From Escherichia phage N4, in sequence record NC_008720.1: a DNA stretch of 64,000 bases; one strand, given 5' to 3'. Under the pieces are notes generated by a model, which was not told the DNA's origin, did not search any database, and was given only the letters and a program-made list of their open reading frames with translations. This document shows, piece by piece, positions 27,479 to 28,332 of the stretch. The first letter of the stretch is position 1, and the number at the start of each line of letters is the position of its first letter. The position numbers were made by a program, and so were the translations under genes.

Positions 27479-27850
27479 ATGAACCGTATTACTGAAGAAC
27501 ATATTGATAGCATCATTGAAGGTGTTTACTACTTCAATATGGCTAAAGCTGTAGAGAATGAAGCAGTTCTGATTCCTGAAGACCATTTAAAAGCATTAAG
27601 TACAACTACTGTTTGTGCACTGGTTCTTTCTAATGGATTCACTATTACTGGTAAATCTGCCTGTGTTGACCCTAACACCTTCAATGAGGAGTTAGGTAAG
27701 AAATATGCTTACGAACAGGCCGTTGATAAAGTATGGGAATTGGAAGGCTATCTGCTTAAGCAAAACCTGCATGAGAAAACTCAGAGCCAGGAAATGCTAA
27801 AAGGGTTCCTGCAAGATGACAACTGTGAAGGTGGGGGCTGTAAAATCTAA
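27479..27850 (+). CDS. Hypothetical protein (123 aa)
   Basis: SD AAGGAA 6 nt before ATG 27479; conserved-looking core ...TVCALVLSNGFTITGKSACVDPNTFNEELGKKYAYEQAVDKVWELEGY...; stop overlaps the next start (TAATG). Confidence 0.5.
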   Translation: MNRITEEHIDSIIEGVYYFNMAKAVENEAVLIPEDHLKALSTTTVCALVLSNGFTITGKSACVDPNTFNEELGKKYAYEQAVDKVWELEGYLLKQNLHEKTQSQEMLKGFLQDDNCEGGGCKI

Positions 27851-28332
27851 TGGAAATTAAAGTTCACTTTACTAATTACATCGGAACCAAATGTGTAAAT
27901 GGTTTCCCGATGAACAAAGCTGACTACTGCAAACTTCGTGGTTGGGATGTACCTGCTAATGAAGACCCGTTAGAAGAGGGTTACTTAGTAGAGTATCCCG
28001 ATTCTAAACCTAACCATGAACAATTCCGTGGCTACATTAGCTGGTCACCTAAAGCTGCATTTGAAGAAGCATACTGTGATGTAGACAAAGGCTGCACGTT
28101 TGGTCACGCAGTAGAGCTTATGAAATCAGGTTTTAGAATGTCCCGTAAAGGCTGGAATGGGAAAGGAATGTATATCACATTAGTATCCGGTGAAAACTGG
28201 GCTATGGATAAACATGAAAATACCGTATGCATGAAACAGGATTGGCTGGGTATTAAAACCGCTGACAATGAATTTATGCCCTGGGTTCCATCTCAATCAG
28301 ATGTATTAGCAGAAGATTGGGTATTAGCTTAG
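27850..28332 (+). CDS. DUF2829-like (Thoeris anti-defence Tad2-like) domain protein with about 80-aa N-terminal extension
   Basis: Residues 84-109 (nt 28099-28176) [27 protein letters not shown] and C-terminal ...[16 protein letters not shown] match my recollection of the DUF2829 signature. Not verified by any search. Confidence 0.45.
   Translation: [160 protein letters not shown]

What the first reader, a model, noticed from the sequence alone, without database searches (positions are those of the whole stretch)
27479..28332. Translationally coupled two-gene module with a DUF2829/Tad2-like domain, adjacent to the virion RNAP gene
The 160-aa product of 27850-28332 carries, in its C-terminal half, the pattern [26 protein letters not shown]...[13 protein letters not shown], which matches what I recall of the DUF2829 family; members include Tad2, which sequesters Thoeris cyclic-nucleotide signals. 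Here it follows an about 80-aa Cys-containing N-terminal extension and is coupled (TAATG) to an upstream 123-aa protein with a conserved-looking SACVDP-containing core. It sits at the end of the plus-strand module, next to the tRNA region and before a bidirectional terminator. This is a plausible anti-defence or signal-sponge locus whose domain arrangement I do not recognise.
Basis: partly seen in the sequence, partly recalled or inferred. Interest (0 to 1): 0.65.

Follow-up and report, generated by a model that had tools for sequence, protein, structure and literature searches.

The report
Phage N4 two-sponge anti-defence cassette
These two overlapping genes are phage N4 gp48 and gp49: gp48 is a published immune-signal sponge (Acb4), and gp49 is an untested member of the Tad2 sponge family with an extra N-terminal domain that occurs almost only on sponge proteins and has no known function.

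Summary
ORFs 27479-27850 (123 aa) and 27850-28332 (160 aa) share one base (TAATG). They lie between a tRNA cluster plus hairpin and a bidirectional terminator next to the virion RNA polymerase gene. The window is phage N4 itself, and the proteins are exactly gp48 and gp49.

gp49 residues 83-159 match Pfam PF11195 (Tad2-like, E=8e-24) and solved Tad2 structures, and 9 of 10 gcADPR-contact residues are conserved. The upstream gene is PF13876, the Acb4 family. N4 gp48 is already published as Acb4, which triggers the Panoptes defence system.

A 2026 preprint describes this region of N4-like phages as an anti-signalling hotspot holding Tad2, Acb4 and Sequestin. The core interpretation is therefore correct but largely known.

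The open part is gp49's N-terminal ~75 aa. It is a strongly conserved, confidently folded domain that is absent from Pfam and NCBIfam and has no significant match in the PDB. It occurs in at least 1,350 protein clusters. Every assignable fusion partner is a sponge family: Sequestin, Tad2, Acb4, Acb2/Tad1, Lockin or RyR-Tad. In a divergent homologue (CB1 gp68) it forms a domain-swapped dimer and is inactive alone. Its cysteines are not conserved.

The parts
27424..27453 (+). Upstream terminator-like hairpin (12-bp stem, 6-nt loop) followed by a T-run. It closes the tRNA region. Only an AT-rich stretch (27450-27468) separates it from the gp48 ribosome-binding site.
   Evidence: terminator scan; RNAfold -18.6 kcal/mol. 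Annotated as a terminator in the 98%-identical phage Jura.
27468..27472 (+). Shine-Dalgarno sequence AAGGA, 6 nt upstream of the gp48 ATG.
   Evidence: Read directly from the sequence.
27479..27850 (+). N4 gp48 = Acb4(N4), 123 aa. The PF13876 core is residues 4-97. A conserved C-terminal extension ends in CEGGGCKI.
   Evidence: PF13876, 8.8e-35. (100% identical to YP_950526.1). (PDB 9e4w Acb4, E=9e-4). (PF13876 is the Acb4 family). (N4gp48 named Acb4, necessary and sufficient to trigger Panoptes). (conservation).
27828..27837 (+). Purine-rich AAGGTGGGGG inside the end of gp48, 12-15 nt upstream of the gp49 ATG. The spacing is longer than typical for a Shine-Dalgarno site, which is consistent with gp49 depending partly on coupling to gp48.
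   Evidence: Read directly from the sequence. That gp49 depends on coupling is inferred.
27850..28332 (+). N4 gp49, 160 aa, with two domains. Its start overlaps the gp48 stop by one base (TAATG).
   Evidence: (exact match to YP_950527.1, which NCBI names 'DUF2829 domain-containing protein'). (PHROG 872, full length, 1e-66).
27871..28083 (+). gp49 N-terminal domain (residues ~8-78), a sponge-associated domain in no curated family. Motif: IGTK..PM.R..Y..RGW..P..E...EGYLVEY...N....[10 protein letters not shown].AY.
   Evidence: conservation. (1,350 clusters; partners are sponge families). (no Pfam or NCBIfam hit). (pLDDT 95.7). (no PDB relative). (homologous to the CB1 gp68 / RyR-Tad N-domain).
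28096..28326 (+). gp49 Tad2-like domain (residues 83-159) with a conserved ADPR-signal pocket (W102, N103, I135, T137, D139, W145, S148, S150, D151) and a short variable insertion (~113-132).
   Evidence: Contact residues, mapped. Insertion length compared.
28344..28361 (.). Bidirectional intrinsic terminator hairpin shared by the rightward gp48-gp49 unit and the leftward vRNAP gene.
   Evidence: found on both strands. (-15.2 and -15.5 kcal/mol).

Best explanation
The module is a compact anti-signalling cassette at the right end of phage N4's rightward (early/middle) gene block. It sits in the hotspot between the replication genes and the virion RNA polymerase gene where N4-like phages collect immune antagonists.

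[quoted passage not shown] It soaks up cyclic dinucleotide signals of CBASS-type systems.

gp49 is a Tad2-family sponge. Its C-terminal domain should assemble into the Tad2 tetramer and bury ADP-ribose-derived TIR/Thoeris signals in the conserved Trp/Asn/Asp pocket formed between protomers.

The gp49 N-terminal domain most likely acts as a two-fold, domain-swapping dimerisation module that stabilises or cross-links the oligomer. Sponge pockets exist only at protomer interfaces, so such a module would help any sponge family. That would explain why it is fused to six of them.

The one-base overlap lets the two sponges be made together from one message.

Shown: the gene structure; family membership of both proteins; pocket conservation; published Panoptes activity for gp48; the sponge-only fusion pattern of the N-domain; and dimerisation of the N-domain in a divergent homologue.

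Inferred: ligand binding by gp49; which signal it binds; its oligomeric state; the role of the N-domain; actual translational coupling; and transcription by N4 RNAPII.
For: Identity and family:
- Searches place gp49 residues 83-159 in Tad2 by profile, sequence and fold.
- Searches show 9 of 10 SPO1 Tad2 gcADPR contacts kept. W102, N103, T137, W145 and S148 are invariant in 44 homologues.
- Searches show that gp48 is the published N4 Acb4.

Locus:
- (preprint) describe the primase-to-vRNAP region of N4-like phages as an anti-signalling hotspot with Tad2, Tad3, Acb4 and Sequestin.
- One search reports that Acb4-Tad2 fusions exist and block both Thoeris and CBASS.
- Searches show that Acb4 | N-Tad2 adjacency recurs in N4, Jura, ECBP1 and KP8, in the unrelated phage Huey, and in 19 of about 57 N-Tad2 viral loci.

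N-domain:
- among 150 diverse carriers, every Pfam partner but one (a single WDGH domain) is a sponge family (Sequestin 55, Tad2 37, Acb4 21, Acb2/Tad1 4).
- it is also fused to Sequestin (at least 94 cases) and to Lockin homologues in published tables.
- it is homologous to the CB1 gp68 N-domain, which forms a domain-swapped dimer in the crystal.
Against: - No experiment on gp49 was found in the searchable literature.
- Tad2 family members differ in ligand: 3'cADPR, His-ADPR, N7-cADPR, cGG/cGAMP and cUMP/cCMP. The target signal is therefore not determined. One contact differs (SPO1 H71 is M143 in gp49).
- In gp48 the guanine-specific residues of SPO1 Acb4 (K36, E49) are replaced by Thr, so its ligand range probably differs from the founder's.
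- A pure dimerisation role for the N-domain fits poorly with three things. Stand-alone N-domain genes exist (phiEaP8; 7 of 150 representatives). About 25 polar or aromatic positions are nearly invariant. SPO1 Tad2 tetramerises without it.
- The dimer evidence comes from a divergent homologue that lacks several of the conserved residues (R30, G31, W32, E48, K68, Y75).
- No promoter was identified.
Confidence: 0.7

Rival explanations
1. The gp49 N-terminal domain is itself a binding module, a further sponge pocket for a different small-molecule signal. gp49 would then be a two-specificity sponge, like the Acb4-Tad2, Tad2-Sequestin and Acb4-Sequestin fusions.
For: - Fusion to known sponges is how Sequestin was discovered, and this domain shows the same pattern more broadly.
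- It occurs as a stand-alone gene. [quoted passage not shown]
- Many nearly invariant aromatic and charged residues (K14, R30, W32, E38, E48, N55, Y62, W65, K68, Y75) look more like a binding site than a scaffold.
- It folds with high confidence (pLDDT 95.7).
Against: - The CB1 gp68 N-domain alone had no anti-type-I-Thoeris activity.
- The domain is acidic (pI 4.85), whereas known sponge pockets are positively charged.
- It has no fold similarity to any nucleotide-binding protein.
Confidence: 0.25
2. The N-domain binds a protein rather than a small molecule. The partner could be a host sensor or effector, or another N-domain-bearing sponge. It would then tether or co-assemble sponges, or directly inhibit a defence component.
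For: - It has a conserved acidic surface loop (P-x-D/E-E-N-P-x-D-E-G).
- Domain swapping could in principle pair different N-domain proteins.
- Tad3-Tad8 act by binding proteins.
Against: - N4 encodes only one N-domain protein, so hetero-assembly cannot be its role in this phage.
- Association with sponges of unrelated ligand classes argues against a specific defence protein as the target.
Confidence: 0.12
3. gp49 is an anti-CRISPR of the AcrIIA7 type (AcrIIA7 is a DUF2829 protein), not a signal sponge.
For: gp49 matches AcrIIA7/HgmTad2 chains (8kbi, E=3.5e-10). Homologues in phages Huey and Louie are annotated 'anti-CRISPR protein'.
Against: - Li et al. could not reproduce any Cas9 inhibition by HgmTad2 or its homologues, and showed that it is a gcADPR/cGG sponge.
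- E. coli has no type II CRISPR system (general knowledge, not tested here).
- gp49 is closer to SPO1 Tad2 (44% identity) than to AcrIIA7 (33%).
Confidence: 0.03

Closest known systems
Tad2 (Thoeris anti-defence 2; SPO1 gp34.65; Pfam PF11195/DUF2829; PDB 8SME/8SMF)
   Same: gp49 residues 83-159 share the profile, about 44% identity, the fold and 9 of 10 gcADPR-contact residues. The beta2-beta3 insertion is short, as in SPO1 Tad2.
   Different: gp49 carries an extra ~80-aa N-terminal domain that SPO1, Myroides odoratus (ModTad2), Hgm and Spt Tad2 proteins lack. H71 is replaced by Met/Val in this subfamily. The insertion is ~5 aa shorter than in SPO1 and about half that of HgmTad2, so the HgmTad2-type cyclic-dinucleotide pocket is unlikely. 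Ligand and oligomeric state are untested.
Acb4 (anti-CBASS 4; SPO1; Pfam PF13876; PDB 9E4W) and its published N4 member, N4gp48
   Same: P1 is N4gp48 itself (100% identical). It carries the PF13876 core, a conserved adenine pocket (F68, N69, L72, C62) and the stacking Phe (F54).
   Different: The guanine-reading residues K36 and E49 of SPO1 Acb4 are Thr42 and Thr55 in gp48. Y57, T70 and K81 also differ. gp48 has a 26-aa conserved C-terminal extension ending in CEGGGCKI that the 96-aa founder lacks. Chang et al. report that homologues from Gram-negative phages additionally bind 3'3'-cAA, which fits.
N-terminal domain of RyR-Tad (Pectobacterium phage CB1 gp68; bioRxiv 10.64898/2026.06.04.730250)
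   Same: It is the same domain family as gp49 residues 8-78: BLASTP 2e-6, my N-domain profile E=4e-6, and a BFVD structural match to the TG1 RyR-domain protein. In both proteins it sits N-terminal to a sponge domain in the same N4-like hotspot.
   Different: CB1's copy is divergent. It lacks R30-G31-W32, E48, N55, K68 and Y75 of the canonical motif, and it is fused to a RyR-repeat sponge rather than to Tad2. Its crystal dimer and its lack of activity alone may not carry over to the canonical family.
Fused multi-sponge proteins (Acb4-Tad2 of Pasteurella phage Pm86; Tad2-Sequestin; Acb4-Sequestin of Pseudomonas phage Ab09 gp59)
   Same: They use the same logic of combining sponge modules to cover several signals from one locus. 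N4 places Acb4 and Tad2 in overlapping genes instead of one chain.
   Different: In N4 the two sponges are separate polypeptides. The extra module on gp49 is not Sequestin: there is no PF21825 hit, it has beta-alpha topology rather than all-alpha, and hhalign probability is below 1%.

Membership tests
Tad2 / PF11195 (DUF2829) | Significant match to the family profile above Pfam's gathering score | tested here: met
   84.4 bits against a cut-off of 25, E=8e-24, residues 83-159 covering 2-72 of 73 profile positions.
Tad2 / PF11195 (DUF2829) | Tad2 fold (N-terminal helix plus antiparallel sheet), superposable on solved Tad2 | tested here: met
   (AF2 model, pLDDT ~90 in this domain except the insertion). 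(Foldseek against 8smf/8sme: target-normalised TM 0.78-0.83, 43-45% identity, E about 1e-6). This is a predicted, not an experimental, structure.
Tad2 / PF11195 (DUF2829) | Conserved signal-binding pocket residues (SPO1 W25, N26, I63, T65, D67, H71, W73, S76, T78, D79) | tested here: met
   the equivalents are W102, N103, I135, T137, D139, M143, W145, S148, S150 and D151. That is 8 identical, 1 conservative (T to S) and 1 changed (H to M). Five are invariant in 44 homologues.
Tad2 / PF11195 (DUF2829) | Homotetramer with pockets at protomer interfaces | not testable with these tools
   Only monomer prediction was available. This needs AF-Multimer/AF3, SEC-MALS or a crystal structure.
Tad2 / PF11195 (DUF2829) | Binds and sequesters a TIR- or CD-NTase-derived signal and inhibits the cognate defence | not testable with these tools
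   No experimental report on N4 gp49 was found.
Acb4 / PF13876 | Significant match to the family profile; identity with a characterised member | tested here: met
   (119.5 bits against a cut-off of 27). (exact N4 gp48). (N4gp48 called Acb4; knock-down rescues N4 on Panoptes; expression alone triggers Panoptes).
Acb4 / PF13876 | 3'3'-cGAMP contact residues of SPO1 Acb4 (K36, F48, E49, V56, Y57, F62, N63, I66, T70, K81) | tested here: inconclusive
   F54, F68 and N69 are identical and L72 is conservative. C62 replaces V56. The guanine-specific K36 and E49 are T42 and T55. Y57 is V63, T70 is Y76 and K81 is E87. The alignment is weak (E=9e-4), so the mapping at its ends is uncertain.
Sequestin / PF21825 (considered for the gp49 N-domain) | Match to PF21825; all-alpha ~60-80 aa protomer | tested here: not met
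   (no hit even at E<=10). (predicted beta-alpha-beta-beta-alpha). (hhalign probability 0.1%). In fusion proteins Sequestin is a separate segment next to the N-domain.
Lockin (considered for the gp49 N-domain) | Curved beta-rich protomer forming hexamers (PDB 9P8L) | tested here: not met
   No PDB sequence or fold match. Lockin-like segments occur as separate partners fused to the N-domain. The authors did not detect Lockin in model phages, whereas this domain is in N4.
RyR-Tad N-terminal domain family (CB1 gp68_N) | Sequence and fold homology to the gp68 N-domain; N-terminal position on a sponge; domain-swapped dimer | tested here: met
   Homology and position are met. Domain-swapped dimerisation of the N4 copy is not testable here.
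AcrIIA7-type anti-CRISPR | Inhibition of type II-A Cas9 | not testable with these tools
   The two proteins share only the DUF2829 domain. The Acr activity of AcrIIA7 itself was not reproducible according to Li et al..

The most novel reading that the evidence does not exclude
The N-terminal ~75-residue domain of gp49 is an unnamed, very widespread family: at least 1,350 clusters at 50% identity and at least 585 viral-contig loci. It would have an anti-defence activity of its own, either a new signal-binding pocket or a general helper that all sponge classes benefit from. Because its assignable partners are almost only sponges (Sequestin, Tad2, Acb4, Acb2/Tad1, Lockin, RyR-Tad), it could also serve as bait. 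Its unassigned fusion partners (for example P0261/L035, P0325/P0328 and P0284/P0350) would then be candidate new sponge families.
Probability: 0.3. Interest if true: 0.7.

Novelty: new member of a known kind. Interest (0 to 1): 0.4.

Why it matters
N4 is a classical model phage, and this shows that it carries two immune-signal sponges as one overlapping gene pair. One of them (gp48/Acb4) is also the trigger that exposes N4 to the Panoptes counter-defence.

gp49 is an easy, untested target. Knowing which signal it binds would show which E. coli signalling defences N4 has had to face.

The more general value lies in the N-terminal domain. A module shared by six structurally unrelated sponge families points to a requirement common to all sponges, such as assembly of the interface pockets, or to a further activity. 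It also offers a simple fusion-based handle for finding new sponges that Pfam-based fusion searches could not see, because the domain is not in Pfam.

Tried and rejected
1. N-domain = Sequestin. PHROG 9467 links the N-domain to an Acb4 core, and Ab09 has an Acb4-Sequestin fusion, which prompted the idea. Rejected: no PF21825 hit, a different secondary structure, and hhalign probability below 1%.

3. Cys-based metal site in the N-terminal extension. Rejected: C15, C27, C76 and C82 are not conserved.

4. HgmTad2-type cyclic-dinucleotide pocket in gp49. Unlikely: the insertion is ~19-20 aa, against 41 aa in HgmTad2.

5. Narrowing the ligand by Tad2 clade. Not possible: the papers give no residue determinants for His-ADPR or N7-cADPR specificity.

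7. Promoter for gp48-gp49. There is no sigma-70-like site on the + strand. I could not retrieve a published consensus for N4 middle promoters beyond 'AT-rich', so the promoter is unresolved.

8. N4 records EF056009 and NC_008720 are not in the phage collection. Identity was established instead by exact protein look-up and by IMG/VR locus L009.

9. A search of Chang et al. Table S3 for N4-like entries failed because the service was busy.

Full report
**What is there**

P1 runs 27479-27850 (123 aa) and P2 runs 27850-28332 (160 aa). The TAA stop of P1 shares its last A with the ATG of P2 (TAATG).

P1 has a good Shine-Dalgarno sequence (AAGGA, 6 nt upstream of its ATG). P2 has only a purine-rich run 12-15 nt upstream. 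That fits, but does not prove, translational coupling.

Upstream lie four tRNA genes at 26298-26977 and a strong hairpin with a T-run at 27424-27453 (-18.6 kcal/mol). Downstream, the hairpin at 28344-28361 is flanked by A and T runs and scores as a terminator on both strands. It is followed by the 3,506-codon minus-strand virion RNA polymerase ORF.

No sigma-70-like promoter lies on the plus strand in 25800-28700. That is what one expects for rightward N4 genes read by the phage's own polymerases from AT-rich promoters. I could not define the promoter itself.

**Identity**

The window is phage N4 itself, genome coordinates 6154-70153. This follows from IMG/VR locus L009, a 70,153-bp contig matching at 100%.

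P1 and P2 are exact matches to gp48 (YP_950526.1) and gp49 (YP_950527.1). NCBI already names gp49 'DUF2829 domain-containing protein'. The closest records in the phage collection are other Enquatrovirus genomes at 97-98% identity.

**gp49 C-terminal half: Tad2**

- Residues 83-159 match Pfam PF11195 'Thoeris anti-defense 2-like' at E=8e-24, 84 bits against a cut-off of 25.
- They match solved Tad2 chains at E about 1e-15: SPO1 gp34.65 and the Myroides odoratus Tad2 (ModTad2, also written MoTad2).
- An AlphaFold2 model (pLDDT 87) superposes on SPO1 Tad2 with target-normalised TM about 0.8 and 44% identity.
- The SPO1 residues that hold 1''-3' gcADPR are W25, N26, I63, T65, D67, H71, W73, S76, T78 and D79. 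They correspond to W102, N103, I135, T137, D139, M143, W145, S148, S150 and D151.
- Five of these are invariant and two nearly invariant across 44 homologues that share gp49's architecture. Only the His position differs.
- The variable insertion is short, about 19-20 aa. The second, cyclic-dinucleotide pocket of HgmTad2 needs a 41-aa insertion, so it is unlikely here.
- Tested Tad2 proteins collectively bind 3'cADPR, His-ADPR, N7-cADPR, cGG/cGAMP and cUMP/cCMP. The signal bound by gp49 therefore cannot be read from the sequence.

**gp48: Acb4, already published**

P1 matches PF13876 at 8.8e-35. Chang et al. define PF13876 as the Acb4 sponge family, with more than 1,300 members and a tetrameric founder from SPO1.

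The Panoptes paper names N4gp48 as Acb4. Knocking it down rescues N4 on Panoptes hosts, and expressing it alone triggers Panoptes.

I mapped the SPO1 contacts through the weak alignment to PDB entry 9e4w. The adenine pocket and the stacking Phe are kept. The guanine-reading K36 and E49 are Thr in gp48. That fits the report that homologues from Gram-negative phages also accept 3'3'-cAA; the link between the two is my inference.

A C-terminal extension ending in CEGGGCKI is at least 90% conserved in 89 homologues, and the founder lacks it.

**The locus**

A 2026 preprint shows that the region between the primase-polymerase and the vRNAP of N4-like phages is a hotspot of anti-signalling genes. 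It lists Tad2, Tad3, Acb4, Sequestin, and the RuvC-like Bes1 and Bes2.

N4 gp46 (window 24965-25522) is the orthologue of the Bes1-type gene. It is 36% identical (E=5e-32) to CB1's 'N4 gp46-like' protein and shows a faint RuvC match.

Local profile scans show how the gp48-gp49 arrangement varies:
- The pair Acb4 | N-Tad2 occurs in N4, Jura, ECBP1 and KP8.
- KP8 adds a stand-alone Sequestin directly after the pair.
- The order is reversed in the unrelated coliphage Huey.
- phiEaP8 has a stand-alone N-domain next to vRNAP.
- Phage inbricus has an N-Acb4-Sequestin triple fusion.

Among 80 IMG/VR loci, 19 of about 57 N-Tad2 genes have a separate Acb4 gene within 4 kb, usually abutting it upstream. 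Published Acb4-Tad2 fusions block both Thoeris and CBASS. The N4 pair is therefore the unfused version of a recurrent two-sponge combination.

**The gp49 N-terminal domain**

This is the one part that is not yet explained.

- Conservation. Residues ~8-78 are as conserved as the Tad2 half, with about 25 nearly invariant positions. The motif is IGTK..PM.R..Y..RGW..P..E...EGYLVEY...N....[10 protein letters not shown].AY.
- Fold. Modelled alone, it folds with pLDDT 95.7.
- Abundance. A full HMMER scan of 1.84 billion representatives finds 1,350 clusters. At least 585 viral contigs encode it. tblastn finds it in 122 isolated phage records, including Escherichia, Vibrio, Klebsiella, Pseudomonas, Erwinia, Rhizobium and Clostridium phages.
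- Partners. Among 150 representatives, the Pfam partners are Sequestin (55), Tad2 (37), Acb4 (21), the Acb2/Tad1 hairpin (4) and one WDGH domain. Triple fusions such as Acb4-N-Sequestin occur.
- Presence in published tables. The supplementary tables of Tal et al. contain at least 94 N-domain-Sequestin fusions. They also contain two fusions to Lockin homologues. That file is probably their Lockin table S4; I inferred this from the file order and its content.
- Link to RyR-Tad. The domain is homologous to the N-terminal domain of Pectobacterium phage CB1 gp68. [quoted passage not shown] It reports that the domain has no anti-Thoeris activity alone and forms a domain-swapped dimer in the crystal.

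**Mechanism**

I take the cassette to be two sponges made together. gp48 sequesters cyclic dinucleotides. gp49 sequesters an ADP-ribose-derived TIR signal through the conserved Tad2 pocket.

For the N-domain the best-supported role is two-fold dimerisation that stabilises the oligomers. Sponge pockets form only at protomer interfaces, so this benefit would apply to every sponge family, which would explain the promiscuous fusions.

Three observations count against a purely structural role: stand-alone copies exist, many polar and aromatic residues are conserved, and CB1's copy is divergent. I therefore give about 0.25 to an independent ligand-binding function and about 0.12 to a protein-binding function.

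**Novelty and verdict**

However, the sponge nature of the locus is already in the literature: gp48 experimentally, and Tad2 in N4-like hotspots descriptively.

gp49 itself is untested. Its N-terminal domain is an unnamed, widespread, sponge-associated family whose function is open.

I rate this as a new member of a known kind, with modest interest (0.4). The N-domain lead would deserve about 0.7 if it proves to have its own activity.

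Noticed in passing
window 27740-27847 (gp48 residues ~88-123): gp48 has a C-terminal extension beyond the Acb4 core, ending in C-E-G-G-G-C-K-I. It is at least 90% conserved in 89 full-length homologues and absent from the 96-aa SPO1 Acb4. It might form an inter-protomer metal or disulfide site, but its function is unknown.
   Followed up: partly
window 24965-25522 (N4 gp46) and 25525-25959 (gp47): gp46 is 36% identical (E=5e-32) to CB1 gp74 'N4 gp46-like' and has a faint RuvC match (NF000711, E=0.018). 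It is the Bes1-type 'broad evasion of signalling' gene of the hotspot. gp47 has an acidic low-complexity tail and no family hit, and it sits where Bes2 sits.
   Followed up: partly
proteins P0261 / locus L035:4001-4513; P0325 and P0328; P0284 and P0350: These N-domain proteins have fusion partners that match no known family: a ~90-aa beta-rich domain, a ~128-aa domain, and a 200-490-aa N-terminal region. By guilt-by-fusion they are candidate new sponge or anti-signalling families.
   Followed up: no
window 27424-27478: The only non-coding space upstream of gp48 is a strong terminator-like hairpin followed directly by an AT-rich run (TTTTTTATTTAATTAAATAA) and the Shine-Dalgarno site. No sigma-70-like promoter was found. 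Either transcription reads through from the tRNA cluster or an AT-rich N4 RNAPII middle promoter overlaps the terminator tail.
   Followed up: partly
window 25979-26146: A 55-codon, strongly hydrophobic ORF (MVATKLLLGVVVFIVLILLIVRIID...) lies between gp47 and the tRNA cluster. A small 'membrane protein' gene occupies a similar hotspot position in phage CB1.
   Followed up: no
locus L004 (Klebsiella phage KP8) 1924-3207: Four consecutive genes read Acb4 | 51-aa ORF | N-Tad2 | stand-alone Sequestin, just before vRNAP. This is a denser version of the N4 cassette, with three known sponge families side by side.
   Followed up: partly
locus L005 (Erwinia phage phiEaP8) 2501-2737: A stand-alone N-domain gene (78 aa) lies immediately next to the vRNAP gene with no sponge domain attached or nearby. 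This suggests the domain can act on its own.
   Followed up: no
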